Below are positions 4,901-59,901 of a DNA stretch of 64,000 bases, piece by piece. This DNA is from an uncultured Pseudomonadota bacterium (lineage in GTDB: Bacteria > Babelota > Babeliae > Babelales > CAIQNR01). The position numbers and the translations under genes are program-made. A model generated the notes under the pieces. It was not told the origin of the DNA and ran no database searches. It saw only the letters and a list, made by a program, of their open reading frames with translations. The first letter of the stretch is position 1, and the number at the start of each line of letters is the position of its first letter. The stretch spans positions 143,501-207,500 of the forward strand of contig CAZMYL010000001.1 in the NCBI GenBank assembly GCA_964570505.1. Direction: 5' to 3'.

Positions 4901-7374
4901 TAGCACAGCTTTATGTAAGTCAGGCAAATACAATCCTTCTTCAAATTCAAGATTATTTTAATGGTAAAGAGTATGATAAAATTACTGATGATTTGTTTCT
5001 TAAAATGATTGGTTATTATAACAATGCAATAGAAAATTATAGTAAATTAGGCCTTTCAAATAATGTAATTTCTACAAGTAAATTAGTAAGTCAGGCGATG
5101 GCTTTTTATTTTTATAGTTTAATAATTCCATCTGATTCTGTTACATCAGCAATTGATGCTCTTATGAAATCAAGTAGCTCAACTGCTGTTAAAAAAACAG
5201 GTTTAATTATAAAAAATATGGGATCTTTTGTTAAAGATGAAAATAAAAATTTTATGAATCAATCTTTATATATTTTACGTTATGCACAACAAGATTTACA
5301 AAATTTTAAAGAAATTGCAGATGAAAATGTTGCGAATTTTCAAAAACAAACTGACTCAAGTTTGTTAAATAATGCTTTAGAACAACAAAAATTTTATGTA
5401 AAAATGATAGAAGTTGCAAAAGGATTTGTAGGTTCGCAGGATTATAAAGGAATTCTTAAAGAGTTAGTAATTCCTTTGTATAAATCAACATTAGTAAATT
5501 CTGGATATAAACATATTTTTAAAACGATTGATAATGAAGTTCAGGATTATGCAGGACAAATAGAGATGCTGATAGATAAAGGAATATCTATTGGTGGCAC
5601 AATTTTAAAAACAAAATTTGTAGTAGATCAGCAAAAAAATACTGATGGGTCTGTTTCGCTTATATTAAAATCATATAATATTCCAACTTCTGCAGTTCCT
5701 CAATTTACAGGGGATATTATGAGTGCTTTGGTTGTTTATACGCAATATCAAAATTTTTTTCAGCAAACAGCTCAGCCTGTGCAAACAAGTAGTGGTGTTT
5801 TTTCTGCTATTCCAGATCAAAATTCATATAAAAAAGCTCAATATTTAATAAATGAAACTTATATTTCTGCAGCAAATAGTTACAATAATAAATTGTTAAA
5901 ACTTATTGATCCTTTAAAAAATATTCAAAATAAAACAGAAAAAAGATTTGATGATTATGCAGCAAGTTATTCTTTGGTGAATGATATATATCAAGAAATT
6001 TTTGCTTATTATTCTGTTCTTGATCAGGTTCAAAAAGCAACGAGTATAATTTCTTATGATGTTTCTGGACTCTATGTGAAAAAATTTCAAGCATATAGTG
6101 AAGATTTGCAATATTTCTTGATAGGTGATCCTTCTTCTCCTGACTATATTAAACGAGTTATAGAATCTGCTATGGCATATTTGTTGATATCAAATTATAC
6201 ATCAGATACTACTACGTGGAGTCAAATGCATAAAAAAGCTGGAGATCTTTATAAAAAAACAGCTGATTTAGCTTATACTTATACTATTTCTGCTCCATCT
6301 TATAATGGATATCCAAGTAAATCTGCTCATAATTTTCCAAAAAAAGGCGATTCTTTTAAGGTTCCATCATCATTAATATGTGAAAATTTTGTAGCATCTG
6401 CAGATCCATCGTCACCAATTATTTTTTATGCGTATCAAGATGCTCAAGGGTATTATCAGCAAGCTTTACAAAACTACCGCCAGTCATATGCATTGTTACG
6501 CAATAATCAATCAAAAGGAGAAATGACTGATTCATCAATTATGACTTGTTGGTCTTTGTATCTTATAGCTGGAATTAAAAATGCAATTCAGCGTATAGGA
6601 TTATTTTCCAGAAATGCTTTTGAACCAATTGGAACTTCAATATTGTGTGATTTTTCTAGTGATTTTATTAAGTTGCAATCTGAAGGTAAAAATAATGGAT
6701 TTTCATCTGCGCAACAAGGGTATTCTTCGTTAGCAGGAATGGGAAATCAGTTAACAAATAATTATGTAGGCAAACAGTATGCTATTATGAAAAAATTATT
6801 AATTGATTCATTAATTTATCTTTCTGGTGCAATTAATATTTGTAATTCGTTATCTAAATCTTTGGGAATTTCAACGGCTACAATTGTTGATAAAAAACTT
6901 GGAGCATCATATTTCTGTGCTCTCGCTCGTTATTTTCCTACATTAACTTGTATGACAGGATCGGATCTTTCAGGATTGCTGCTTTCAAAATATATATCAA
7001 ATCCAGCAGGGCTTTCGATTTCAGCAGATTTAAATATACAACAACAATATGCATTTTTATATTCAGATAGTTTTATTCAAACTCATGATTATATAATTAA
7101 TTCGTTATGTGGTAATCAAACTACAATGTCTACCAAAATGAAAATGCCAGAAAATGTTGTAGCTATGGCAAGTTACATATCGCAACTTTTTGGAATGGTG
7201 CGTACGGTCTATGCAAATGCATTTTTACCGGAATTGGTAAAGGCGGTTGATGATGCTGGTGCAACTGGCAAACCTGTAGCTTCTGCTGTTTCTGCATTAC
7301 AACAAAGTATTAATACAGATGTCACAACAGCTCAACAAAATATGTTAATAGATTCATCAGGATACGTTGGTTGA
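1915..7374 (+). CDS. giant exported protein, 1819 aa, no recognisable domain
   Basis: 5.46-kb uninterrupted ORF starting 35 nt after the previous gene. Signal-peptide-like MKYYLIVALLSLYSDIHTF is followed by an S/T/N/Q-rich ~60-residue linker and then a Q/N/S/Y/A-rich body. No catalytic or repeat motif seen. Confidence 0.8.
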   Translation: MKYYLIVALLSLYSDIHTFTVTTQSKTPVNTTNQLSNTSSSNIVALSTTSSGLNSNSQNSSTQSALTLNSGAVKNNSKVVKQWSVKLNDSDIPSLYTSPEFITVQKTVYQLSQLMNSLIGNFKSVQQQNNQIIWSVTAQSSSDTLKNSNQNAINSQGFDYVKTYSTFQSYMSGQSTSFVASFQSVYTIYQNLFPTFKEYMQSSGKEVSATSQAYFTKLPFQKDSYTITLLQSISSAIIKYLTARASLISVQNYIQNNGSSDLFGSSGAFQYGDIIMSALKKFMDEEYKKVTSLQGLTAEENVELQSYYNLIFSDYIKQKNTLLIQTVVKLLKSLSYKNQSNLVSINTNNQPIATNELEIFVNNAVTAAQAYNSLSEETIQNKFLEYDSIDNALIEIHSLLADLYCFNSKILLLNIEKSAQESGDLPYSINDKDQIQFQTTLLNAFYLFQKMIYQAAQHASLAKKSDLYTLYSGQSAMAESIIINWQNGQSSYAVQSYSNALSYFNAVLSASQKYQLTYCVNYIISIIQKINLEYEQTLFGLYVQNPSYISALSTYIDHALSTNVSTYEEDQALWCSIWYPDASPVASSVKNSNIYQGFYLLSTSAVQTIQSILASAQTNQLKLSEEKIIDLQYAVKTLNFLVAGLQEMLVQSSLFPDKQSADANMYVNYYTPAGYRKVHTQYQSIINAFDGIDKVYQESATDTLNSYCPLQSLLVNQKNISNFGMLARLHYARWAFCMGMYAIKYASNKDCLKDKTCIVYQNTAYQYALCALVDAQNIYAGLGQKAIVNYIEDQILSIKMYASGLLNTADLVVSSENSNMSDTSWYDALYYTQVAAAVDSSVYGNEYIKRLEDLIKKETSNIFKRTIPDIYKAYLLYQGYIWALFINDNLLKNSYASQLQKTLDASVIAVNALQNQSQSKDNSLLNIEKIKELQKIQNILEIFAVNQNYQKGIFITSGNDFITIAENKVVGSSILNKKITFFGGSTLFLSNIDYSLAQLYVSQANTILLQIQDYFNGKEYDKITDDLFLKMIGYYNNAIENYSKLGLSNNVISTSKLVSQAMAFYFYSLIIPSDSVTSAIDALMKSSSSTAVKKTGLIIKNMGSFVKDENKNFMNQSLYILRYAQQDLQNFKEIADENVANFQKQTDSSLLNNALEQQKFYVKMIEVAKGFVGSQDYKGILKELVIPLYKSTLVNSGYKHIFKTIDNEVQDYAGQIEMLIDKGISIGGTILKTKFVVDQQKNTDGSVSLILKSYNIPTSAVPQFTGDIMSALVVYTQYQNFFQQTAQPVQTSSGVFSAIPDQNSYKKAQYLINETYISAANSYNNKLLKLIDPLKNIQNKTEKRFDDYAASYSLVNDIYQEIFAYYSVLDQVQKATSIISYDVSGLYVKKFQAYSEDLQYFLIGDPSSPDYIKRVIESAMAYLLISNYTSDTTTWSQMHKKAGDLYKKTADLAYTYTISAPSYNGYPSKSAHNFPKKGDSFKVPSSLICENFVASADPSSPIIFYAYQDAQGYYQQALQNYRQSYALLRNNQSKGEMTDSSIMTCWSLYLIAGIKNAIQRIGLFSRNAFEPIGTSILCDFSSDFIKLQSEGKNNGFSSAQQGYSSLAGMGNQLTNNYVGKQYAIMKKLLIDSLIYLSGAINICNSLSKSLGISTATIVDKKLGASYFCALARYFPTLTCMTGSDLSGLLLSKYISNPAGLSISADLNIQQQYAFLYSDSFIQTHDYIINSLCGNQTTMSTKMKMPENVVAMASYISQLFGMVRTVYANAFLPELVKAVDDAGATGKPVASAVSALQQSINTDVTTAQQNMLIDSSGYVG

Positions 7375-8245: not shown

Positions 8246-8869
8246 TTATTTATTGCATTTATCATAAAAGAATTGAGCTTCTGCAGCAGGATCATTACTG
8301 CCAAGTATTGCTTTGCCAACAATTATGCCATCCGGTTTTAGTGCTATAATATGATCAATATTTTCACGATCTACTTTTGCAGATACAAAAATTGGAAGAT
8401 CTGTATTTCCTCTCACCATTGTCCATTTTTCTAAAAATAAAATAGTTTCATTTTTGTCATAAGGTTGGTGAAACATAATAGAATCGATACCAAGGCTTTT
8501 TGCTTCAAGGGCAGCTTGGCCTGGAGAATTAGCATCTAGAACATCGAGCATTACTTTTTTCCCCATGTCATGAGCTTTTGAACAGACAGCATGAATGACT
8601 TCTTTATTGGTTCCTGCCATGACAGTTATCCAATCGGCGCCTGCTTGAGCAAAAATGCTTGCAGCATCCCTACCTCTGTCTACAATTTTGCAATCTGCAA
8701 GTAGTATTTTATCAGGAAATTCTGCGCGAAATAATTCAACTGCTTTGGCTCCCCATTTTAAAATAGGAAGTGTTCCAATTTCTAAGATTTCTGCATATTG
8801 GGCGATGATGCGCGCTTCTTCTATATTTTGATCAAGTTCGATTTCATCAAAAGATATTTGAAGTTTCAT
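8246..8869 (-). CDS. 3-hexulose-6-phosphate synthase-like enzyme (OMP-decarboxylase/KGPDC fold)
   Basis: 207 aa. MKLQISFD...EILEIGTLPILKWG...LLADCKIVD...DGIIVGKAI follows the HPS/UlaD family pattern (LQxAxD, EIGTP, ADxK, C-terminal VGxxI). I cannot separate HPS from 3-keto-L-gulonate-6-P decarboxylase by eye. Confidence 0.65.
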   Translation of the reverse strand: MKLQISFDEIELDQNIEEARIIAQYAEILEIGTLPILKWGAKAVELFRAEFPDKILLADCKIVDRGRDAASIFAQAGADWITVMAGTNKEVIHAVCSKAHDMGKKVMLDVLDANSPGQAALEAKSLGIDSIMFHQPYDKNETILFLEKWTMVRGNTDLPIFVSAKVDRENIDHIIALKPDGIIVGKAILGSNDPAAEAQFFYDKCNK

Positions 8870-45369: not shown

Positions 45370-45394
45370 TATGTATAGAAAGATGGGGTTATCT

Positions 45395-46114
45395 ATGAAA
45401 AAATTTTTATTGTTATTATGCGTTTCGCTTTGCGCAACCCGTGTTTACTGTGCTCCCACTGATGATAAATATAGTTGGCTTACAAGGCTTGGTATGTTTT
45501 TAAGAAATAGTCCTCAGCAAATTTTGACACAGTTAAAACAAGAAAATTTGTATACTGATTTATGGCTAGAAGAATTACCTGCTCCAGAAGGTATCGTATA
45601 TAGAGTATATCGTATTATTAAGGTAAGTAATGAATTGTCGATAGCTTTTCATGTAGGAAATATATTTATTGGCGATGATGGTATTAGTGTTCGTACTGAG
45701 ACTTTTGGGGGACAAGTATTAGATCATGCTCAGCAAGCCGAAGTAGATTGTGAAACAATTATAAGGTGTATTGCATGGAATCGTCCTCCGCAGCAATTTA
45801 TTGAATTTTTGAGGAAAGTTTTTTCTAAAGAATTAGATAGTAAAACAATGACAGAGATTCAAAAGCAATTGTATAATATAAAAAACCCTGAGGAGAGCAA
45901 AGGATTTGTTTTTACGCAAAACAAAAGGTGTAACTCAATTATTGATGAAGAATTAGCTCAAGCTGCTCAATGTGGGCAACGGATGATGGTTAGAGTCGCT
46001 GCAAAGGCTGCAGCTCTTTATGGATTGTATTCTTTAAGAAATGAAATTGCTACAGGTGTTAAAAATGGTACTTCATCTCTTGTGGCTGCAGTTGCAAGTG
46101 GACTAGGTAAGTAA
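45395..46114 (+). CDS. secreted/tail-anchored paralogue 1 of a three-gene tandem family
   Basis: MKKFLLLLCVSLCATRVYCA signal peptide. The C-terminus ...AALYGLYSLRNEIATGVKNGTSSLVAAVASGLGK is shared with the next two genes, and the middle is divergent. The track start is 45371. Confidence 0.7.
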   Translation: MKKFLLLLCVSLCATRVYCAPTDDKYSWLTRLGMFLRNSPQQILTQLKQENLYTDLWLEELPAPEGIVYRVYRIIKVSNELSIAFHVGNIFIGDDGISVRTETFGGQVLDHAQQAEVDCETIIRCIAWNRPPQQFIEFLRKVFSKELDSKTMTEIQKQLYNIKNPEESKGFVFTQNKRCNSIIDEELAQAAQCGQRMMVRVAAKAAALYGLYSLRNEIATGVKNGTSSLVAAVASGLGK

Positions 46115-46139
46115 TGATATATGGCTTAAGAGGTTATCT

Positions 46140-46880
46140 GTGAAGAAATTTTTATTGTTAGTATGTATTTTTGTTTGTGCAACTCGTGTTTACTGTGCTG
46201 CCACTGATGATAAATATGGTTGGTTTACAAGGCTTGGTATGTACTTAACAAAGAGTCCTCAGCGAATTGCGAAAGAGTTAAGAAAACAACGTTTGTATAC
46301 TCATTTATTGATAAAAAAATCTTCCGAAAATTCTGAATATCCAAGAAAATCTAATGGTTATCATTTATATCATTTTTTTGAAAATAGTAATGTTGGTATA
46401 TCGAAAAGAATGATAGTTGAACAATATGGTACTGTTGATGTTGAAGAATCTTCTGGGTTCTATATCGTTAACCCTAAAGAATTTCAAGAAAATTCTAGCT
46501 TAATAATATCTACTATTGCGCTGTATTATCCTCAGAAATTTATTAGTTTTTTGAGAGAAGTTTTTTCTGAAAAAGATTCTACTTTAGACGACTTCTCTAA
46601 AAGCAACAGTTGGGCTGAAATCTGTCGGAAAAAGAAAATAGATACGCTTGATTATAGTGCACAGCAACAGATTATTAGTGAAAATAATAAAAAGTGTAAC
46701 TCAATTATTGATAAAGAATTGTCTCGAGCTACTCAATGTGGAGTTGCTGCAACGGTTGGAGTTGCTGCAGCGGGTGCAGCACTTTATGGATTGTATTTTT
46801 TAAGAAATGAAATTGCTACAGGTGTTAAAAATGGTACTTCATCTCTTGTGGCTGCAGTTGCAAGTGGACTAGGTAAGTAA
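46140..46880 (+). CDS. secreted/tail-anchored paralogue 2
   Basis: GTG start 6 nt after SD AAGAGG. MKKFLLLVCIFVCATRVYCA signal peptide and a Gly/Ala-rich hydrophobic C-terminal segment. Identical to paralogue 3. Confidence 0.7.
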   Translation: MKKFLLLVCIFVCATRVYCAATDDKYGWFTRLGMYLTKSPQRIAKELRKQRLYTHLLIKKSSENSEYPRKSNGYHLYHFFENSNVGISKRMIVEQYGTVDVEESSGFYIVNPKEFQENSSLIISTIALYYPQKFISFLREVFSEKDSTLDDFSKSNSWAEICRKKKIDTLDYSAQQQIISENNKKCNSIIDKELSRATQCGVAATVGVAAAGAALYGLYFLRNEIATGVKNGTSSLVAAVASGLGK

Positions 46881-46905
46881 TGATATATGGCTTAAGAGGT
46901 TATCT

Positions 46906-47646
46906 GTGAAGAAATTTTTATTGTTAGTATGTATTTTTGTTTGTGCAACTCGTGTTTACTGTGCTGCCACTGATGATAAATATGGTTGGTTTACAAGGCT
47001 TGGTATGTACTTAACAAAGAGTCCTCAGCGAATTGCGAAAGAGTTAAGAAAACAACGTTTGTATACTCATTTATTGATAAAAAAATCTTCCGAAAATTCT
47101 GAATATCCAAGAAAATCTAATGGTTATCATTTATATCATTTTTTTGAAAATAGTAATGTTGGTATATCGAAAAGAATGATAGTTGAACAATATGGTACTG
47201 TTGATGTTGAAGAATCTTCTGGGTTCTATATCGTTAACCCTAAAGAATTTCAAGAAAATTCTAGCTTAATAATATCTACTATTGCGCTGTATTATCCTCA
47301 GAAATTTATTAGTTTTTTGAGAGAAGTTTTTTCTGAAAAAGATTCTACTTTAGACGACTTCTCTAAAAGCAACAGTTGGGCTGAAATCTGTCGGAAAAAG
47401 AAAATAGATACGCTTGATTATAGTGCACAGCAACAGATTATTAGTGAAAATAATAAAAAGTGTAACTCAATTATTGATAAAGAATTGTCTCGAGCTACTC
47501 AATGTGGAGTTGCTGCAACGGTTGGAGTTGCTGCAGCGGGTGCAGCACTTTATGGATTGTATTTTTTAAGAAATGAAATTGCTACAGGTGTTAAAAATGG
47601 TACTTCATCTCTTGTGGCTGCAGTTGCAAGTGGACTAGGTAAGTAA
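46906..47646 (+). CDS. secreted/tail-anchored paralogue 3 (identical copy of paralogue 2)
   Basis: Identical 246-aa translation and, as far as I can read, identical nucleotides at a 766-nt offset. Confidence 0.7.
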   Translation: MKKFLLLVCIFVCATRVYCAATDDKYGWFTRLGMYLTKSPQRIAKELRKQRLYTHLLIKKSSENSEYPRKSNGYHLYHFFENSNVGISKRMIVEQYGTVDVEESSGFYIVNPKEFQENSSLIISTIALYYPQKFISFLREVFSEKDSTLDDFSKSNSWAEICRKKKIDTLDYSAQQQIISENNKKCNSIIDKELSRATQCGVAATVGVAAAGAALYGLYFLRNEIATGVKNGTSSLVAAVASGLGK

Positions 47647-50463: not shown

Positions 50464-52186
50464 TATTGTAAAAAGTAAAGTTCAAATTCTTGATATTATT
50501 GGTCAGCATGTTGTTTTAAAAAAAGCTGGGCATTATTGGAAAGGATCCTGTCCTTTTCATAGCGAAAAAACAGCATCGTTTAGTGTAAGTCCTCATAGAG
50601 AAATTTTTTATTGTTTTGGTTGTCAAGAAACAGGCGATGTTATTGCATTTATTAGTAAAATTGAACATTGTTCTCAAATAGAAGCTGTAAAATTTCTTGC
50701 AGAACGTTATGCAATTGAACTTCCAGATAATTTTTCAACAGAGACAGCAGAAAGCTTTGATGAAAAAAAACGTTATTTTTCATTATGTTCGCTTGTAGCC
50801 ACATGGTGTTATGAACGTTTGTTAGAAAATCCTCAGGTTATGGAATATGTTTTGCAGCGAGGTATTAATCATGATGAAATTAATATTTTTAAAATAGGTT
50901 ATTTTCCTTCTGGAACGCAATTTTTAAAGCATTTATTACAAGAATTGCGAAAAGAAAATTTTTTATTAAAGGATCTTATTGATGCTGGGATAGCAGGAGA
51001 AGGCAAAGCTATTTATTCATCATTTGAACAACGAATTATATTTCCTATACGCGATCATTTAGGACGTTATTGTGGATTTGGAGGTCGAATTTTTAAACCA
51101 TCTGATGAGCGGTCAAAGTATTATAATTCTCCTGAAAATAATTATTTTCAAAAAGGCTCTATTCTTTTTGGGCTAGATATTGCAAAACGAGATATTCAAA
51201 CAAAAGGAACAGTTTTTTTGGTGGAAGGTTATACTGATTGTATTGCAATGCATCAGCATGGGTATAAAAACACAGTAGCCACACTTGGAACGGCTTGTAC
51301 TGTTGAGCATCTTAAATTACTTTCACATCATGCGCATACTGTTTTGACTTTATATGATGGTGATAGTGCAGGTAGAAAAGCGATGCTAAGATTGGTTGAG
51401 CTTTGTTGGCAGGTTAATTTAGAATTAAAAGTCATTGTTTTGCCTAAAGATTCTGATCCTGCTTCTTTTTTAAAAACTGGTCAGTCATTAGAATTATTAA
51501 TTGCTCAGGCTCAGGATTTATTTGATTTTTTCTTAAGTGATTTGGGTAAAGATTATAAAAATGCACCTTTACAACAGAAGCTTATTTTAGCTAGAAATTT
51601 TTTAACTATTATAAAAAAACTGAATGATCCATTAAAGGAAAATATTTTACTTCAAAAAGCCTCTGAAATTTTTGGCATTCCTTTACATTCATTACAACAA
51701 GAGCTTAAGCAATCTTATAAAAAAGAAGCTTTGCCTGTATCATCAATTCCTGTTGTAGAGCATTATGAAATTTCTAACTTAGAAAAAAAATTTATATGTG
51801 CTATATTGTCTGATACGCAATTATTAAAAAAACACTCAGTAGTAAGAATTTTAAATTATTTGCCAGACGAGCTTAAAGTTTTGATAGAAAAGTTGATTAT
51901 TGCTCAAAATGAATCAGAGTCAGAAGTTTATTCAACCTTTTTTGAGACTCTTGATGAGCGTCAAAAAATATTGGTAAATCAAATGTTGATGACTGAATCT
52001 GAGATACAAGATGATTTTGAAAATATAGAAATGTTGTTGGAAAAAAAGTATTGGAAAATGATTGTTAATGATACAAAAGCACAGCTTAATGAAGCGCAAT
52101 TGCAAAATAACTTGCAAGCAGTGCAAGCAATTATTGGCTCTTTTTTGGATCTGAAAAAAAAATTATTACATAAGGGGCTTATATAA
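50450..52186 (+). CDS. dnaG: DNA primase
   Basis: Zn finger [15 protein letters not shown]...FYCFGC and a TOPRIM domain ([16 protein letters not shown]...[11 protein letters not shown]). Overlaps lgt by 14 nt. Confidence 0.9.
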
Positions 52187-54465
52187 TGGTTATTAAAAGC
52201 ATAATTAATAAAATTTTGGGAATTTCAAAAAAGAGTAATTCTAAAAAAGCAACAAAAAAAATAAAACAAATTAAAAAAATTAGTTCTAAAAAAAGTTCTT
52301 TAAAAACAAAAAAAATTGTTGTTAGAAAAAATAAAAAAACAGTTGATAAAACTGTAAAAAAAGTAACAGTTAAAAAAAATGTTGAGTTGAAAAGCTCTCA
52401 AAAAAAGGCAGGGTCTTTAAAGAAAAATATTTCAAAGCCTTCTGTTAAAGCGCCATCTCGTGTAGTAAAGACTACATTAGATGTTAAAAATTCTTTGATT
52501 AAAAATGAAGTAACTAAAACATCTCTTCAAGCAAAGCCAACAGCTTCTATTAAAAAAACAGTAAAATCAGTCACTTCTAAAAAAGTAGCGACTAAGGCAA
52601 AAGTAGCAGCGCCTGTAGTTTCTGTTAAAAAAGAATTAGATCTTAAAAAAGATTTGATGGATGCAATCTTAGAAAAAGGTAAAGAAACAGGTGTTTTAAC
52701 TTATGAAGAAATAATGGTTCTTCATGATAAAGCTCATCTTACCGAAAAAGAAGCTAATGATTTTATGAAGGTTCTTGAAAAAGAGCATATAGAATTAATT
52801 ATGGAAGAGGAGCTGTTAGCGCAAGATGCACTGGATGATCATAGTAAAGATGAAATTGGATCTCACGCGGAATTGAAGGATAAATTTGTTTCGAGTCTTT
52901 CTGTTGATGAAGACGGTGGTGATGAAGAAGATACAGATTCAGAAGATGACGAAGAAGAGATTGTTGAAAGAGCAGAAGTTTCTCATATTGCCGATGGTGT
53001 TAAATGTTATTTAAGAGATATTGGTAAAATTCCATTACTTAATAAAACAACAGAAAAAGTTATTTCAGATAAGATAGCAACAAGTAAAAATTCTTGTATT
53101 GAGGCTATTTCTCATTTTCCTTTTGTTTATAAAGAATTTTTATCTATTGGAGAGAAACTTCATAAAAATCCAATGATTCTTAAAGATGTGATTCAATTTG
53201 CTGAATATGATGAAGAAAATTTACCTAAAATTGGCGAAGAGCGTGATGCATTTTTAAAAACAATAACAGCACTTGAAGATTTAATTAAAAATGAAGAGCG
53301 CATTTATGCTTCGTATCGGAATCAATTAACATCTCAAGAAAAAAAACAAGAGATGTTAAGAAAAGTAAAAGAGAATAAAGAGGCAATTAGTGAAACTGTT
53401 CAGTCAATTAGAATAGCTAATAAATTTATTAGAAAAATTGGTAAAAAAATTGAAAAGCTTCTTTTGAAAATTCAAGAAAAACAGCAAATTATTCGTGATG
53501 GTCAAAAAACAATTGATTTTATAAAAAAAGGAAAAGACATTTCTTCGGATAATAAAATTTTGCTTGAAGAAACAGAAGTAGAAATAAGAATGGCTACTAA
53601 GTCTATTAAAAAAACGGAAAGTGAAGCAGGTCTTCCTCTTGATGTTATCACTAAGTACTACCGTCAGCTTGTAAAGAGCCAAAAAGATGACAAACATGCT
53701 AAAGATGAACTTGCTAAAGCAAATTTACGTTTGGTAGTGAATATTGCAAAGAAGTATGTTAATAGAGGTCTTCATTTCTTAGATCTTATTCAAGAAGGTA
53801 ATATTGGTCTTATGAAGGCTGTAGAAAAATTTGAATTTGAACGTGGATATAAATTTTCTACTTATGCAACATGGTGGATTAGACAGGCAATTACACGTGC
53901 AATAGCAGATCAGTCAAGAACTATTCGTGTTCCTGTTCATATGGTAGAAACACTTAATAAAATTAATAAAATTAAACGTCTTTTTATTCAGCAACATGGG
54001 CAAGAGCCTTCATATGCAGATTTAGCAAAAGAACTGAATCTTGATGAAAAGAAAGTTAAAAATATTATTAAAATTTCAAAAGAGCCTATTTCGCTTGAAA
54101 CACCAGTTGGCGATAGTGAAGATGCGTTTATTAAAGATTTCATAGAAAATGACAAAGATTTTTCTCCTGCTGAAACAGTAGCAAATTCTGATTTAAAAGA
54201 GCGTGTACGCGAAGTTCTTAAAACACTTGCTCCACGAGAAGAAAAAGTTCTTAAAATGAGATTTGGTATTGATGTTGCATCTGAACATACTTTGGAAGAA
54301 GTAGGAAAAGATTTTTCTGTGACTAGAGAACGTATACGACAAATTGAGGTAAAAGCATTGCGTAAATTACGTCATCCTTCTAGAAGTAAAAAATTACAAT
54401 CGTTTTTTGATAAAGAAATAAATGTGGATGAAAATGATGATATTACTAGTGAATCATTTGAATAA
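52186..54465 (+). CDS. rpoD: primary RNA polymerase sigma factor RpoD with a long Lys-rich N-terminal extension
   Basis: Region 2 reads [44 protein letters not shown]. Region 4.2 reads [29 protein letters not shown]. The start overlaps the dnaG stop (TAATG). Confidence 0.9.
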
Positions 54466-55878: not shown

Positions 55879-56289
55879 ATGCCTTATAAAAGAATAATAT
55901 TAATCATGTTGTGTGTTTTTATTCATAGTGAAATACTAACTAATCAAGTTAATATTTCACATCAAAATGAATCTAATAATGCTGGAAAATTAGTTTCATA
56001 TTTTTTAAGAGATATCTTAGGTGGGATTGTTGGCCTTAAAGCAAATCAGGGAAATTCTCAAGAAGCATCAGCATCATTAAAACAGGTCTTAAATGGCATG
56101 GCTGGTTTAGTAGAGACAGTTCTTGAAGAAAATAAAGTACGTGGAGTTTCAATATCATCAGAAGATATTGAAACTATAATGTTATATTTAAAAAATATAA
56201 TCAAATATTCTCTTGATACAGAACAAGGTCAAAAAGCATTAGAGGTATTGCTTAAAGACTTAAATTTATTAAAAAAAGAAAATAAATAG
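55879..56289 (+). CDS. hypothetical exported protein, 136 aa
   Basis: Signal-like MPYKRIILIMLCVFIHSEI. No family recognised. Confidence 0.5.
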   Translation: MPYKRIILIMLCVFIHSEILTNQVNISHQNESNNAGKLVSYFLRDILGGIVGLKANQGNSQEASASLKQVLNGMAGLVETVLEENKVRGVSISSEDIETIMLYLKNIIKYSLDTEQGQKALEVLLKDLNLLKKENK

Positions 56290-56483: not shown

Positions 56484-57833
56484 TTATGGGAAGCAATATT
56501 CTTGCACAACAACCATTTCATAAGGTTCTAATCCAACAGAAACAATTGCTATAGGAACTCCTGCAAGACACTCAAGTTGTTTTAAAAAAATGCGAGCTTC
56601 TTGCGGTAGTTCACTAAAAGTCCGTGCATTTCGAGTCGATTTTTTCCATCCAGGAAAAACAATATAATGAGGCACAACTCGTTTTTGATCTTCAAGTGCT
56701 GGTGCAGGGTAATCAAGATGTCTTCCGTCAAGGTCGTAATCGATGCACATTTTTATTTCATCAAGATCATCAAGTAAATGTAAACCATTAAATGCTATAC
56801 AATCGGCTCCGTTTATCATAACTGCTTGACGTATCATAACAAGATCAATCCATCCGTATTGATGTTTTGGATTGTATATTTTTCCAAATTTTGTTTTTAC
56901 CATATTTGAAACTTCGGGGTCTTCTATTGCAGTAATAATTTTTTCAGTTCCTGGGTAAATACTATAAGAATCTACAATTGCTATAACAGTTTTGATTCGT
57001 TTAAATCCAACACCTGCAGAGCTACAAATGCTTGAAGCAAGAGCACTTACTCCTGAAGTATAAGAGCATGTTCCATGAGTACTATCAAGATAAGTACCAT
57101 AAGGACTATCAAAAAGACCTATTTTGCCATGGCTTAACATTTGATTAAATTTAAGCTCAATTCCATCACGAACATAAGGTTTTAGTATTTTTCTGTATTT
57201 AGTAAATGTATTATAAACTTCTTTAAAATCTATTGGCTTGTTTTCATAGAGTTTAATAATGATATCATTTCCTCTTTGAACATTTTCTTTAAGAAGGTCC
57301 TTATAACCGGCGCTCATTAAATCTGCTATTCTAAAGGCAACACCCATACATTTATCTGATCCTGCAGCGCCAACACCTACGCGTACACCAGATCCGATTC
57401 GACATGTTTTTTTCTTACGACTATAGTGTCCAATGCTTTTTTGATAAGGCATTAAAATTTGTGCGCTTGCAGATATTCGAATTCTTTTTTTTGTATCAAT
57501 TCCGAGCTTTTCAAGATCTTCAAGTTCCTTAATAAGTAAATCAGGATCAATAAGTGTTCCTGGAGCAATGTATACTTTAATTGCAGGCGATTGTAAAATT
57601 CCAACAGGGATATGATAAAAATTGTAAGAAACACCATCAACAGTTGCTTTGTGAGGATTTGTATAAGGAGCTTTTGTTTGGACTAAAAAATCAGATTTTC
57701 TTGCAAGATAATCTAAAATAACGGTTTGATAGTCATTGGTCCAACCTGTACCAATTGCAACCATACCATACGCTCTTTTTGAGTTAACATTACAAAATAA
57801 AAGTGCAACTACTATAATAGTAAATTTTTTCAT
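56484..57833 (-). CDS. exported adenylosuccinate synthetase (PurA)-like protein with degenerate catalytic motifs
   Basis: SD AAGGAG lies 7 nt before the ATG at 57833. Signal-like MKKFTIIVVALLFCNVNSKRAYG. The protein is collinear with PurA over its full length (IPVGIL, LDSTHGTCSYTSG, YGWIDLVMIRQAV, FPGW, VSVG). The P-loop, GGHNAGHT, GTTGRGIGP, TTGRRRR and (N/T)KLD motifs are all replaced. The track ORF extends to 57893. Confidence 0.7.
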   Translation of the reverse strand: MKKFTIIVVALLFCNVNSKRAYGMVAIGTGWTNDYQTVILDYLARKSDFLVQTKAPYTNPHKATVDGVSYNFYHIPVGILQSPAIKVYIAPGTLIDPDLLIKELEDLEKLGIDTKKRIRISASAQILMPYQKSIGHYSRKKKTCRIGSGVRVGVGAAGSDKCMGVAFRIADLMSAGYKDLLKENVQRGNDIIIKLYENKPIDFKEVYNTFTKYRKILKPYVRDGIELKFNQMLSHGKIGLFDSPYGTYLDSTHGTCSYTSGVSALASSICSSAGVGFKRIKTVIAIVDSYSIYPGTEKIITAIEDPEVSNMVKTKFGKIYNPKHQYGWIDLVMIRQAVMINGADCIAFNGLHLLDDLDEIKMCIDYDLDGRHLDYPAPALEDQKRVVPHYIVFPGWKKSTRNARTFSELPQEARIFLKQLECLAGVPIAIVSVGLEPYEMVVVQEYCFP

Positions 57834-57916
57834 AATCTTCTCCTTACTATAAGGACGGTAGTCTGCCTTAAAAGTAATAATCTGTAAACCCATCTATTTA
57901 TTGTTTGATAGGCTTG

Positions 57917-58359: not shown

Positions 58360-59901
58360 ATGTTATTTAAGAAATTTTTTTTATTATTTTCTATTTGTGG
58401 TAATTATAAAGATCCTGTAAAAAGTGAACCTTTAGAATGTTCTGAAAACAGTAAAACTTCTGATTCTCCTTATTTAAGACGTATTCCAAGAGATCCTATT
58501 ACATATTTTCAATTCAAATTTGCAACAGAAAACGAAAAGGCTATAAATTATGAGAGAAGTTTAAAAAAATCAGTCGTTCCTGGCTATGATTTTACTGACT
58601 TATATGTAAAAAAAGAAAAAGAATTTATAGAAAATGATGGTGGTATTTATGCTTCTGCATTTTGTCAATTATTGATAAGCCGATCTGTTTCTGTTACGGG
58701 AAAAAGTCAATTACATAATATAGTAAGCCCAGTAAATGTTTATACATTTAAAAACAGGCCTGATACTCGAGCTTGTGCATATTTTCATACAATATGGTTT
58801 AAGGAATCTAGTTTGAAAAGAACATCTTTGTCTGAAAATTGTTTTACAGCATTGCATGAACTTCATCATATTATACACGGTGATTATAGAAGTAACAAAA
58901 GCATGTATAATCATTTTAATGATAGGTTTTCTACAGAGGAATCATATTCAAAATATATAGAATATAGTGCTGATGTAGGCGCTTTAGAGTATATGGGTTC
59001 AGCTGCAGCTATTAATGAAGTAGCTGAAAAATGTCCTGATGATTATAATTCAAGTAATGGTTATTTAAATAAAAAACAATATATGGAATTTGCTAAAGAA
59101 GCGCGAAAACAAGAAGATCAGTTTAAAGCTAATTTTTCCTATAATGATATGATTTTGCAACAAAAAGAATTTACACAAGATGATTTAAATCAATTTAAAT
59201 TTAACAATACAACTAAAAAAGAGTTGCTCCAAGATCAAGAAGAACATGCAGCGTATATGAAAAACTTGTCTTCTGATAATGATAATAATAATGAATTTCA
59301 AGCAGTTAATGATCGTAAAATGACGATGCTTTTAGCAATCCAAAAAAAATTACATATTGAAATTCAATTATTTGATATTGATGAAGAAAATAATGATCTG
59401 AAAAACAAGCTTTATATAAAATTATTGCATATTCATTCTATGCTAGAAGAGTCGGGATATATTAATCAAAAAGTGTATTCTGATGAATTTTATTATAATG
59501 GTCCTTCTTATATTGATAAAGAAAATAATGATCTGAAAAACAAGCTTTATATAAAATTATTGCATGTTAACTCTATGCTAGAAGAACATGCGTATATTAA
59601 TGCAAGAGTGCATTCGGATCAATTTCAGTATCAATATCCTTCTGATGTTAATGCTGAAGAGCTTAAAAAAAGATCATTTAATGATTTAAAAGGCAACCAA
59701 GATAAAAGTGAGCGATGGTTATTATCTAATTTATTTGCAGCATTGCAATATAATAATTTAGATAAATTAGAAGTTGATCTTAATTGGGTTGATCTAGAAA
59801 TAACAAAAGCTAATTTAGAACGTAATCAAGAAGAAGTTGAAAGACTTAAATGTATTAAAGCAAATTATGAAGAGCAGATTGAGAGTCTAAAAGGTAGTTA
59901 A
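58360..59901 (+). CDS. hypothetical HExxH-motif protein (putative zinc metalloprotease) with a coiled-coil/repeat C-terminal half
   Basis: 513 aa with a hydrophobic N-terminus MLFKKFFLLFSICG. ALHELHHIIHGD contains HExxH. There is a 45-aa internal tandem repeat, and the C-terminus is rich in E/K/N/L heptads. Confidence 0.65.
   Translation: MLFKKFFLLFSICGNYKDPVKSEPLECSENSKTSDSPYLRRIPRDPITYFQFKFATENEKAINYERSLKKSVVPGYDFTDLYVKKEKEFIENDGGIYASAFCQLLISRSVSVTGKSQLHNIVSPVNVYTFKNRPDTRACAYFHTIWFKESSLKRTSLSENCFTALHELHHIIHGDYRSNKSMYNHFNDRFSTEESYSKYIEYSADVGALEYMGSAAAINEVAEKCPDDYNSSNGYLNKKQYMEFAKEARKQEDQFKANFSYNDMILQQKEFTQDDLNQFKFNNTTKKELLQDQEEHAAYMKNLSSDNDNNNEFQAVNDRKMTMLLAIQKKLHIEIQLFDIDEENNDLKNKLYIKLLHIHSMLEESGYINQKVYSDEFYYNGPSYIDKENNDLKNKLYIKLLHVNSMLEEHAYINARVHSDQFQYQYPSDVNAEELKKRSFNDLKGNQDKSERWLLSNLFAALQYNNLDKLEVDLNWVDLEITKANLERNQEEVERLKCIKANYEEQIESLKGS
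59386..59655 (+). repeat. internal tandem repeat, 2 x 135 nt, within the HExxH gene
   Basis: ENNDLKNKLYIKLLH(I/V)(H/N)SMLEE... occurs twice. The first 45 nt of each unit are identical (GAAAATAATGATCTGAAAAACAAGCTTTATATAAAATTATTGCAT). Confidence 0.8.

What the first reader, a model, noticed from the sequence alone, without database searches (positions are those of the whole stretch)
56484..57893. Signal-peptide-bearing adenylosuccinate synthetase homologue in which every catalytic motif is degenerate
Seen in the sequence: taking the SD-preceded ATG at 57833, the product starts MKKFTIIVVALLFCNVNSKRAYG, which looks like a signal peptide. It then aligns by eye along its whole length with PurA (IPVGIL~IPSGIL, LDSTHGTCSYTSG~LDIDHGTYPYVTSS, YGWIDLVMIRQAV~TGWLDTVAVRRAV, FPGW~MPGW, VSVGLEP~ISTGPDR). 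Established knowledge: PurA is a cytosolic GTP-dependent enzyme whose P-loop GDEGKGK, GGHNAGHT, GTTGRGIGP, TTGRxRR and (N/T)KxD motifs are essentially invariant. Here they read TNDYQTV, APYTNPHKAT, RIGSGVRVG, YNPKHQY and NGLH. Inference: this is an exported, catalytically dead or re-purposed PurA fold, either a pseudoenzyme or a ligand-binding or host-directed protein. I do not know of a described precedent. No other purine-biosynthesis gene lies in the window.
Basis: partly seen in the sequence, partly recalled or inferred. Interest (0 to 1): 0.85.

Follow-up and report, generated by a model that had tools for sequence, protein, structure and literature searches.

The report
Exported, catalytically dead PurA-fold protein
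An uncultured intracellular bacterium (Babeliales/Dependentiae, TM6) keeps a well-conserved copy of the purine enzyme adenylosuccinate synthetase that has gained an export signal and lost every substrate-binding motif, so the fold has probably been put to a non-enzymatic use outside the cytoplasm.

Summary
The gene at 56484..57833 (-) starts at an ATG preceded by a ribosome-binding site. It encodes a 449-aa protein that matches PF00709 end to end (E=2e-78). Its AlphaFold model superposes on solved PurA structures (TM 0.86-0.91).

The protein scores far below NCBI's purA cut-offs. It lacks the P-loop, the catalytic Asp13, the IMP site, the aspartate loop and the guanine-specificity motif.

Residues 1-23 form a typical Sec signal peptide: MKK, then 13 uncharged hydrophobic residues, then VNS/AYG.

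It is not a decaying gene: dN/dS is 0.06 against its 95% identical orthologue. It is also not a recent duplicate. It belongs to a 27-member clade (bootstrap 100) found only in Babeliales/Dependentiae-type genomes, mostly at one conserved chromosomal position.

All members lack the IMP and aspartate motifs, and 26 of 27 carry the signal-like N-terminus. Half keep the GTP P-loop, which was lost at least 7 times independently. The window's lineage is the only one that lost everything.

Export, cleavage, loss of activity and the actual function are inferred, not shown. I found no precedent in the searchable literature.

I rate it a new variant of a known kind, with interest about 0.6.

The parts
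56484..57833 (-). Coding sequence of the PurA-fold protein (449 aa; stop codon TAA at 56484-56486)
   Evidence: ORF list and sequence. PF00709 E=2e-78. AF2 pLDDT 88.4 and Foldseek TM 0.86-0.91 to PurA structures. dN/dS 0.056.
57840..57845 (-). Shine-Dalgarno-like AAGGAG, 6 nt upstream of the ATG at 57833
   Evidence: Read directly from the sequence. Orthologues start at the same MKK.
57765..57833 (-). N-terminal signal-peptide-like segment, residues 1-23 (MKK / FTIIVVALLFCNV / NS-KRAYG). Candidate cleavage sites are after VNS18 or AYG23.
   Evidence: Hydrophobic run at residues 4-16, mean KD 2.7, two positive charges before it. The same architecture occurs in 26 of 27 family members and in no ordinary bacterial PurA. 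This segment evolves faster than the rest (dN/dS 0.47 against 0.04), as signal peptides do. SignalP was not available.
57720..57740 (-). Former P-loop, residues 32-38, TNDYQTV (E. coli G12-K18, GDEGKGK). The catalytic Asp13 is Asn here.
   Evidence: Alignments.
57648..57671 (-). Former GGHNAGHT segment, residues 55-62, APYTNPHK. Asn38 is Thr, Gly40 is Pro, His41 is kept.
57369..57395 (-). Former IMP-phosphate loop GTTGRGIG, residues 147-155, GSGVRVGVG. The Arg143 equivalent further on is Gly.
   Evidence: This loop has lower model confidence (pLDDT 65).
57093..57110 (-). Former EGAQGT segment, residues 242-247, DSPYGT. Gln224 is Tyr.
56856..56885 (-). Former aspartate-binding loop, residues 317-326, GKIYNPKHQY. 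It is 2-3 residues shorter than the canonical loop, and Thr300, Thr301, Arg303 and Arg305 are absent.
56778..56789 (-). Former guanine-specificity motif (N/T)KxD, residues 349-352, NGLH
   Evidence: This motif is lost only in the window's clade and in L013.
56529..56540 (-). Former STGP segment, residues 432-435, SVGL. Ser414 and Gly416 are kept.

Best explanation
The gene encodes a Sec-exported, non-catalytic protein that keeps the adenylosuccinate synthetase (PurA) fold.

**Shown**
- It is a true PurA homologue with the fold intact.
- Every motif that binds GTP, Mg2+, IMP or aspartate is replaced.
- An N-terminal MKK + hydrophobic + small-residue segment sits directly in front of the first beta strand.
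- The gene is under strong purifying selection.
- It is one member of an old family restricted to Babeliales/Dependentiae-type genomes, mostly at one conserved chromosomal position.

**Inferred**
- The N-terminal segment is a cleavable Sec signal, so the roughly 47 kDa domain ends up in the periplasm. From there the type II secretion system reported for this phylum could carry it to the cell surface or into the host.
- The protein cannot make adenylosuccinate.
- It works by binding something (a protein partner, an envelope component or a host factor) rather than by catalysis.

**Likely history**
1. A PurA of the PVC/Chlamydiota type acquired an export signal.
2. The IMP and aspartate sites were lost in the family's common ancestor.
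3. GTP binding then became dispensable and was lost at least seven separate times.
4. The window's lineage lost the whole nucleotide site during a burst of faster evolution.
For: **Homology and fold**
- PF00709 E=2e-78.
- PDB PurA chains E about 1e-55 to 1e-58.
- AF2 pLDDT 88.4 and pTM 0.85.
- Foldseek top 31 hits are all PurA, TM 0.78-0.92.

**Not a working PurA**
- NCBIfam equivalog scores are 268 against a cut-off of 402, and 252 against 395.55.
- Only 41% of 54 near-invariant canonical positions are kept, against 98-100% in real PurAs.
- All the motifs are replaced.

**No re-tooled pocket is evident**
- In canonical PurAs the 51 ligand-site columns are far more conserved than the other columns (0.82 against 0.42).
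- In the window's clade they are not (0.71 against 0.74). No other clade of the family shows a significant excess either; the largest is 0.75 against 0.69, permutation fraction 0.09, in the sister clade that keeps the P-loop.

**Functional gene**
- dN/dS is 0.056, 0.12 and 0.10 in three pairwise comparisons.
- The family is monophyletic with 100% bootstrap.
- Flanking genes are shared in up to 9 of 12 loci.

**Export signal**
- It is present in 26 of 27 members and absent from ordinary bacterial PurAs.
- Only its character is conserved, not its sequence.
- The internal Met24, which could give a cytosolic form, is Leu or Ile in close relatives.
- The other signal-bearing ORFs in the window are envelope proteins (DsbD, a TolB-like protein, PAP2) or ORFans. 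Housekeeping enzymes lack the signal.

**Phylum background**
- TM6 lack purine synthesis and have Sec plus a type II secretion system (PMC4776705).
- 44% of Chromulinavorax coding sequences carry predicted signal peptides (PMC6561590).

**GTP site dispensable**
- The P-loop is intact in 14 of 27 members, with at least 7 independent losses.
Against: - No experimental data exist on localisation, cleavage or activity, and SignalP could not be run.
- In the window's clade two basic residues (KR) follow the first candidate cleavage site. In E. coli this disfavours Sec export (my own knowledge, not tested here). The segment could instead act as an uncleaved anchor, or be cut later at AYG|M.
- Half of the family keeps an intact P-loop, His41 and a [KR]xD motif. 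That is odd for proteins sent to a periplasm without GTP, and it hints that some relatives still bind a nucleotide, perhaps in the host.
- The positions replacing the old active site are almost invariant among the four closest sequences (N33, Y35, Y245, R151). A new small-molecule site is therefore not excluded.
- No partner or ligand is identified, so the binding role is a default inference.
Confidence: 0.6

Rival explanations
1. It is still an enzyme. The PurA scaffold has been re-tooled for a different reaction or substrate, as in phage PurZ, and works in the periplasm or host.
For: The protein is under strong purifying selection. Replacement residues at the old site are conserved in the four closest sequences: N33, Y35, Q36, R151, Y245. 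Other family members keep the P-loop, His41, [KR]xD and Ser414. That could mean a GTP-dependent activity on a new acceptor in those lineages. PurZ shows that the fold tolerates substrate switches.
Against: In the window's clade no phosphate-binding loop, Mg2+ ligand or base-recognition motif remains. Old-site columns are no more conserved than the rest of the protein in this clade, with no significant excess in the others. P0004 already varies or deletes within the former P-loop (CNFY-PA). The P-loop was lost at least 7 times in the family, so nucleotide use is not the conserved function.
Confidence: 0.15
2. The N-terminal hydrophobic segment is an uncleaved membrane anchor rather than a cleaved signal. 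The PurA-fold domain is then tethered to the inner membrane, facing the periplasm or, less likely, the cytoplasm.
For: In the window's clade KR follows directly after the hydrophobic run, so charge is balanced on both sides. Three relatives (L005, L016, P0038) have an 18-residue hydrophobic run followed by a linker of about 40 residues. That resembles a signal-anchor plus stalk.
Against: The hydrophobic run is only 12-14 residues in the window's clade, too short for a stable transmembrane helix. It is followed by polar residues with small side chains at -3/-1 in most members, e.g. VEA|K, LNA|K, VDA|L, VTA|I. The MKK n-region follows the positive-inside rule for N-in topology, which puts the domain outside.
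Confidence: 0.15
3. It is a cytosolic protein translated from the internal Met24 (or from the upstream ATG at 57893), and the apparent signal peptide is untranslated or incidental.
For: Met24 sits exactly where canonical PurAs begin. The protein on record in the public collection (P0186, 469 aa, source NCBI) uses the upstream ATG.
Against: Met24 is Leu or Ile in P0002, P0003 and P0004. AAGGAG precedes ATG 57833 and not the other two candidate starts. The 22-30 codon hydrophobic extension stays open and in frame in 26 of 27 orthologues, down to 36% identity. L003 and L004 have no Met upstream of MKK.
Confidence: 0.04
4. It is a decaying relic of purA on its way to loss, i.e. a pseudogene that is still open by chance.
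For: All catalytic motifs are gone. The phylum has lost purine synthesis (PMC4776705). The window's clade evolves faster than its relatives.
Against: dN/dS is 0.04-0.12 while synonymous divergence reaches 0.5-1.8. The reading frame is intact at full length in 27 lineages. The predicted fold is confident. The chromosomal position is conserved.
Confidence: 0.02

Closest known systems
Canonical adenylosuccinate synthetase PurA (EC 6.3.4.4; PF00709, TIGR00184; e.g. E. coli 1ADE, B. anthracis 4M9D)
   Same: Same fold over the whole length (TM 0.86-0.91). About 27% identity to E. coli PurA. Shared structural residues include W11, D229, G233, G308-W309, D311 and S414/G416.
   Different: It has an N-terminal export signal. 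The P-loop, Asp13, Asn38, Thr128/129, Arg131, Arg143, Gln224, Thr300/301, Arg303/305, Lys331 and Asp333 are all replaced. It scores below the NCBIfam equivalog cut-offs. No purine pathway context was found.
Phage PurZ / PurZ0 (succino-amino-deoxyadenylate synthase; PDB 7ODX, 7VF6, 6FKO)
   Same: A divergent offshoot of the PurA fold with altered function.
   Different: PurZ keeps a working nucleotide site and catalysis, with changed substrates (the PDB entries show it bound to ATP/dATP and dGMP). The window protein scores 46.8 against a cut-off of 300 on the PurZ model. It is structurally much closer to PurA (TM 0.9) than to PurZ (TM 0.5-0.7). No PurZ searched for here carries a signal peptide.
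The other members of its own Babeliales family (e.g. P0005-P0010, P0037, P0038; 36-44% identical)
   Same: Same signal-like N-terminus, mostly the same chromosomal position, and the same loss of the GTTGRG and TTGRxRR motifs.
   Different: Fourteen of the 27 members keep the DxGKGK P-loop. Most of the 22 outside the window's clade also keep His41 (16 of 22) and a [KR]xD motif (21 of 22). They may still bind GTP. The window's clade has lost these too and sits on a long branch.
Signal-bearing PurAs with intact or nearly intact motifs (P0050, P0119; P0055 with P0194-P0196, whose nearest named relatives are Chlamydiia/Verrucomicrobiota)
   Same: A hydrophobic N-terminal extension in front of a PurA domain. 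They fall in the weakly supported sister group of the family.
   Different: They retain 98-100% of canonical invariant residues and so could be active enzymes. The P0055 group alters only Arg131 to Gln, Thr301 to Asp and Arg303 to Lys.
Pseudoenzymes in general (e.g. iRhom pseudoproteases, inactive metallopeptidase homologues; PMC3149277, PMC11266112)
   Same: A homologue of an enzyme family that lacks the catalytic residues yet is conserved by selection. Such proteins usually act through binding or scaffolding.
   Different: I found no pseudoenzyme of the PurA family, and no exported PurA homologue, described in the searchable literature.

Membership tests
Adenylosuccinate synthetase (PurA, EC 6.3.4.4) | Homology to PF00709 and the PurA fold | tested here: met
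   PF00709 E=2e-78, 264 bits against a cut-off of 27. Foldseek TM 0.86-0.91 to PurA structures.
Adenylosuccinate synthetase (PurA, EC 6.3.4.4) | Score above the curated equivalog cut-offs (NF002223, TIGR00184) | tested here: not met
   267.7 against 402, and 252.4 against 395.55.
Adenylosuccinate synthetase (PurA, EC 6.3.4.4) | GTP phosphate-binding P-loop GDEGKGK with the catalytic base and Mg2+ ligand Asp13 | tested here: not met
   The motif reads TNDYQTV, with Asp13 as Asn and Lys16 as Gln. The role of Asp12-Gly16 in H. pylori AdSS is given in PMC11276676.
Adenylosuccinate synthetase (PurA, EC 6.3.4.4) | GGxNAGHT segment (Asn38, Gly40, catalytic His41, Thr42) | tested here: not met
   The segment reads APYTNPHK. 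Only His41 is kept, and it is Arg in P0003 and P0004.
Adenylosuccinate synthetase (PurA, EC 6.3.4.4) | IMP site: GTTGRGIGP loop, Gln224, Thr239, and Arg143 from the partner subunit | tested here: not met
   The loop reads SGVRVGVG. Gln224 is Tyr, Thr239 is Ser and Arg143 is Gly.
Adenylosuccinate synthetase (PurA, EC 6.3.4.4) | Aspartate-binding loop TTGRxRR (Thr300, Thr301, Arg303, Arg305) | tested here: not met
   The loop is shortened by 2-3 residues and reads Y-NPKHQ, with none of the four residues present.
Adenylosuccinate synthetase (PurA, EC 6.3.4.4) | Guanine specificity: (N/T)KxD and S(T/V)GP | tested here: not met
   The first motif reads NGLH, with Lys331 as Gly and Asp333 as His. 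The second reads SVGL and keeps Ser414 and Gly416.
Adenylosuccinate synthetase (PurA, EC 6.3.4.4) | Catalytic activity (IMP + Asp + GTP to adenylosuccinate) | not testable with these tools
   Needs an enzyme assay or purA complementation.
Adenylosuccinate synthetase (PurA, EC 6.3.4.4) | Cytosolic protein that starts 2-10 residues before the first strand | tested here: not met
   It has a 23-residue extension with a hydrophobic core. The ordinary bacterial canonical PurAs in the comparison set have 2-10 residues before the first strand and no hydrophobic run.
PurZ (succino-amino-deoxyadenylate synthase) | Score above the NF038379 cut-off | tested here: not met
   46.8 against 300, partial match only. 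Foldseek TM to PurZ is 0.5-0.7.
Sec (SPase I) signal peptide | Positively charged n-region, uncharged hydrophobic h-region of 7-15 residues, polar c-region with small residues at -3/-1 | tested here: met
   MKK / residues 4-16 with KD 2.7 / V-N-S or A-Y-G. This is rule-based only, because SignalP was not available. Caveat: KR lies at +1/+2 of the first candidate site.
Sec (SPase I) signal peptide | Actual translocation and cleavage | not testable with these tools
   Needs reporter fusions or N-terminal proteomics.
Bacterial lipoprotein (SPase II) | Conserved lipobox L-[ASTVI]-[GAS]-C | tested here: not met
   LLFC has Phe at -1, and the Cys is absent in P0001, P0002 and P0004.
Pseudoenzyme | Homologue of an enzyme family, lacking catalytic residues, kept by purifying selection | tested here: met
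   Absence of any activity was not tested.

The most novel reading that the evidence does not exclude
Exported PurA homologues are a recurrent, undescribed class of host-directed factors in obligate intracellular bacteria. Signal-bearing PurAs with intact sites (P0050, P0119 and the Chlamydiia-like P0055 group) would be secreted enzymes that tap or skew the host's IMP-to-AMP branch. The Babeliales family would be their derivative. It first lost IMP and aspartate chemistry while keeping GTP binding. In the window's lineage it became a fully dead protein that acts on the host by binding, for example as a decoy or poison subunit for the host's dimeric adenylosuccinate synthetase.
Probability: 0.1. 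Interest if true: 0.85.

Novelty: new variant of a known kind. Interest (0 to 1): 0.6.

Why it matters
PurA is one of the most uniform housekeeping enzymes known, and its motifs are treated as invariant. Here a whole bacterial order keeps an export-tagged version whose active site has decayed in steps while the fold stays under strong selection.

That gives a natural series for studying how an enzyme fold is re-used: intact with a signal, then IMP and aspartate sites lost, then the GTP site lost. It also points to an unknown component of the envelope or host interface of Dependentiae, a phylum of protist parasites with almost no experimental biology.

There is a practical consequence too. Automated pipelines name relatives 'adenylosuccinate synthase' (JGI names for P0008, P0050 and P0055). 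Metabolic reconstructions of these genomes may therefore wrongly credit them with the IMP-to-AMP step. The protein on record for the window's gene (P0186, 469 aa, source NCBI) also starts at an upstream ATG that hides the signal peptide.

Tried and rejected
- **Shifted manual alignment.** Rejected.
- **Pseudogene.** Rejected by dN/dS of 0.04-0.12.
- **Recent lineage-specific duplicate of a resident purA.** Rejected. The gene mostly sits at one conserved position across relatives as distant as 35% identity, and each genome bin gave one locus.
- **Lipoprotein.** Rejected because the Cys is not conserved.
- **PurZ-like enzyme.** Rejected.
- **Functional link to neighbouring genes.**
  - The NfeD-SPFH pair lies directly upstream on the same strand in most loci, but the whole region is a conserved housekeeping backbone.
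  - The link is broken in the window and in L004, so I draw no functional conclusion from it.
  - A small, fast-evolving signal-bearing ORF always lies convergent downstream; I noted it but did not pursue it.
- **Family-specific conserved residues as a new motif.** Only 14 scattered positions turned up (Q10 to G, T239 to S, G130 to R and others), with no obvious new site.
- **Literature searches.** Searches for a precedent (Dependentiae + adenylosuccinate; adenylosuccinate synthetase + signal peptide/pseudoenzyme; PurA-like terms) found nothing relevant. The nearest results were PurA genes next to ART-like genes in proteobacteria, phage PurA-like genes and PurZ.
- **Residue-role paper for E. 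coli.** That search failed, so I used an H. pylori AdSS paper instead.
  - The look-up of the window's own protein in the contig index found no record.
  - The first tree script timed out.
- **Taxonomy of P0050.** Could not be settled because no DNA is held for it.
Full report
**1. The observation**

The ORF at 56484..57893 on the minus strand is real. Three possible starts exist.

- ATG 57833 is preceded by AAGGAG (57840-57845) at a 6-nt spacing.
- ATG 57893 follows an in-frame TAG directly and has no ribosome-binding site.
- ATG at codon 24 has none either.

In the two close orthologues for which DNA was fetched, the frame upstream of MKK holds no Met. Met24 is Leu or Ile in P0002-P0004. I therefore take 57833 as the start, giving 449 aa.

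The protein matches Pfam PF00709 over profile positions 2-412 of 416 (E=2e-78). It matches solved PurA structures over their full length (E about 1e-55 to 1e-58).

| Canonical motif | Window protein |
|---|---|
| GDEGKGK | TNDYQTV |
| GGHNAGHT | APYTNPHK |
| GTTGRGIG | SGVRVGVG |
| EGAQGT | DSPYGT |
| TTGRRRR | a shortened Y-NPKHQ loop |
| TKLD | NGLH |
| STGP | SVGL |

Only His41, Ser414 and Gly416 survive among the ligand-contact residues.

The roles of the equivalent residues are documented for H. pylori AdSS: Asp12-Gly16, Thr41, Lys322, Asp324 and Ser400-402 for GDP; Asp12 and Gly39 for the metal; Arg135 from the partner subunit for IMP; and the 289-294 loop for aspartate (PMC11276676). 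The E. coli K16Q, R143L and R303L mutant structures also appear among the fold hits.

The protein falls well below both NCBIfam purA equivalog cut-offs (268 against 402, and 252 against 395.55).

Pfam scans of the remaining large ORFs found no purine gene. MnmG, Lgt, DnaG and RpoD were assigned from precomputed Pfam hits on their orthologues. The only gene near nucleotide metabolism is an OMP-decarboxylase/HUMPS-family protein at 8246..8869.

**2. What organism and what family**

The closest relative (95% identity) lies on a 790-kb contig of a 'Candidatus Babeliales bacterium' MAG. Other relatives come from MAGs labelled Babeliales, Babelota or TM6. Some are labelled Pseudomonadota, Gammaproteobacteria or Alteromonas, or are unnamed. 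Of those, the loci long enough to show flanking genes (L006, L009, L010) share the flanking gene set described below, so I treat those labels as probable binning or naming errors.

A profile search of 1.84 billion representative proteins found only about a dozen clusters at 50% identity scoring above the background of ordinary PurAs. This is a small family.

In a neighbour-joining tree of 60 sequences, the 27 family members form a clade with 100% bootstrap support. The window's sequence groups with P0001-P0004 (100%) on a long branch. That group is sister (97%) to a clade that keeps its P-loop.

The nearest ordinary PurAs are of the PVC type. P0047 has a Chlamydia-like gene context, and named relatives of P0055 are Chlamydiia, Chlamydiota and Verrucomicrobiota. 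This grouping has only 43% support.

**3. Position in the genome**

Twelve loci were compared, and most share one gene order:

ribonucleotide reductase NrdA/NrdB ... ComEC-like ... transketolase, NfeD, SPFH/Band 7, **the PurA-like gene**, a small signal-bearing ORF on the other strand, CorC/CNNM, RpoD, DnaG, Lgt, MnmG.

The CorC/RpoD/DnaG side is shared by 9 of the 12 loci. The gene is therefore an old orthologue, seen once per genome bin, and not a recent duplicate. In the window and in L004 the upstream side has been rearranged, so RuvX and other genes lie there instead.

**4. Stepwise decay**

All 27 members lack the GTTGRGIGP and TTGRxRR motifs, so the IMP and aspartate sites were lost in the common ancestor. 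The DxGKGK P-loop is intact in 14 of 27 members. By parsimony on the tree it was lost at least 7 separate times. The [KR]xD motif is kept in 21 of 27.

| Group | Share of 54 near-invariant canonical positions kept |
|---|---|
| Window's clade | 41-44% |
| Rest of the family | 57-76% |
| Ordinary PurAs shown (including the three signal-bearing ones) | 98-100% |

The window's clade has also evolved faster. Its Kimura distance to ordinary PurAs is 1.67, against 1.23-1.25 for the other clades.

In ordinary PurAs the 51 ligand-site columns are much more conserved than the rest (0.82 against 0.42). In the window's clade they are not (0.71 against 0.74), and no other clade of the family shows a significant excess. 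I read this as the old pocket no longer being the selected feature.

**5. Not a dying gene**

dN/dS is 0.056 against L004 at dS 0.53. It is 0.12 and 0.10 against L003. The AlphaFold model is confident (pLDDT 88.4, pTM 0.85). The only weaker stretches are the signal region and the former active-site loops. The best 31 Foldseek hits in the PDB are all adenylosuccinate synthetases (TM 0.78-0.92), followed by PurZ and DgsS at TM 0.5-0.7.

**6. The export signal**

Residues 1-23 read MKK-FTIIVVALLFCNV-NSKRAYG. They hold two positive charges, then a 13-residue uncharged run (mean hydropathy 2.7), then small residues at -3/-1.

Twenty-six of 27 family members have the same design: MK[KR], a hydrophobic run of 9-19 residues, and an extension of 22-30 residues. 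Three of them have 62-65 residues with a linker. P0010 looks like a mis-called start.

The ordinary bacterial PurAs in the same alignment have 2-10 residues before the first strand and no hydrophobic run. The segment's sequence drifts (dN/dS 0.47) while its character is kept, as expected for a signal peptide.

About 20 of 48 large ORFs in the window show the same kind of N-terminus. Those with Pfam matches are envelope proteins (DsbD, a TolB-like protein, PAP2, a toastrack-domain protein). Housekeeping enzymes (RpoD, DnaG, MnmG, Der, MurE, the clamp loader and others) lack it.

This fits published reports on the phylum. Signal peptides are predicted on 44% of Chromulinavorax coding sequences, which are exported through Sec (PMC6561590). 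TM6 genomes have a type II secretion system, no nucleotide biosynthesis and ATP/ADP translocases (PMC4776705).

Two caveats apply. SignalP was not available. In the window's clade KR follows the first candidate cleavage site, which would be unfavourable in E. coli (my own knowledge).

**7. Mechanism**

*Shown:* PurA fold, loss of all substrate motifs, a conserved signal-like N-terminus, purifying selection, and an old, mostly syntenic family.

*Inferred:* Sec export to the periplasm and possibly beyond through type II secretion; no adenylosuccinate synthetase activity; a function based on binding rather than catalysis.

The repeated loss of the P-loop argues that the family's common function does not need GTP. 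Its retention in half of the members leaves open that some still bind a nucleotide.

The rivals are:
- a re-tooled enzyme;
- an uncleaved membrane anchor;
- a cytosolic form from another start codon;
- a pseudogene.

They are weighed in the rival section. The last two are close to excluded.

**8. Comparison and novelty**

The protein works like a pseudoenzyme. By homology it belongs to the PF00709 superfamily, but it fails every functional criterion for PurA and for PurZ (see the membership table).

Full-text searches found no exported or catalytically dead PurA homologue. The nearest described cases are phage PurZ/PurZ0, phage PurA-like genes, and PurA genes linked to ART-like genes.

I rate it a new variant of a known kind. 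The family and its stepwise decay are solid and unexpected, but the function is unknown and the organism is uncultured. Interest is about 0.6.

Noticed in passing
P0055, P0194, P0195, P0196 (locus L019 6001-7371); P0050; P0119: PurA homologues with intact or nearly intact catalytic motifs also carry hydrophobic, signal-like N-terminal extensions. Examples are MLKFCLFIATLLSLSADVIVVVGTQFGDEGKGK and MRKFQNIFYILLLQLLPLFILAKGQA. The nearest named relatives of the P0055 group are Chlamydiia and Verrucomicrobiota. That group changes only Arg131 to Gln, Thr301 to Asp and Arg303 to Lys. Export-tagged PurAs may therefore have arisen more than once in host-associated bacteria.
   Followed up: partly
window 56484..57893 (-): The copy of this protein in the public collection (P0186, 469 aa, source NCBI, 229.5-kb contig) starts at the upstream ATG 57893. 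That puts 20 extra residues in front of the signal peptide and hides it from predictors. JGI names the relatives P0008, P0050 and P0055 'adenylosuccinate synthase'.
   Followed up: yes
window 58360..59901 (+): A 513-aa ORF with a hydrophobic N-terminus, an HELHH (HExxH) motif and only a sub-threshold Peptidase_M78 hit (E=0.0065). It has an internal direct repeat (ENNDLKNKLYIKLLH.xSMLEE, twice). Its orthologue in the 95% identical relative lies elsewhere (L004 2603-4240, between the ATP synthase alpha subunit and a Mur ligase). A local rearrangement therefore separates the two genomes next to the PurA-like gene.
   Followed up: partly
window 55879..56289 (+); L003 8946-9347; L004 9548-9970; L006, L008 and L009 equivalents: A small (127-161 aa), fast-evolving, signal-bearing ORF with no Pfam match lies convergent to the PurA-like gene at the same position in most loci. 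It could be a partner, or merely a positional neighbour.
   Followed up: no
L003, L006, L008-L012, L016 (e.g. L009 6371-7822): An NfeD + SPFH/Band 7 gene pair lies upstream on the same strand in 8 of 12 loci, directly adjacent in 7 of them (about 60-170 bp away). This could be an operon. The linkage is lost in the window and in L004.
   Followed up: partly
window 45371..47646 (+): Three tandem paralogues of 246-247 aa with signal-like N-termini and no Pfam match. The last two (46140..46880 and 46906..47646) are identical over at least their first 42 residues, which suggests a very recent tandem duplication.
   Followed up: no
window 52186..54465 (+): The sigma-70 factor RpoD is 759 aa long and has a long lysine- and serine-rich N-terminal extension. 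The extension is conserved as a feature across the Babeliales loci (684-792 aa).
   Followed up: no
window, whole: About 20 of 48 ORFs of 120 aa or more begin with MKK plus a hydrophobic run. Most of these have no Pfam match, including an 1819-aa ORF at 1915..7374. This matches the very large predicted secretome reported for Dependentiae.
   Followed up: partly
window 8246..8869 (-): An OMP-decarboxylase/HUMPS-family protein (PF00215, E=2e-19) in a genome said to lack nucleotide synthesis. It is more likely a hexulose-phosphate synthase or keto-gulonate-phosphate decarboxylase type than PyrF.
   Followed up: no
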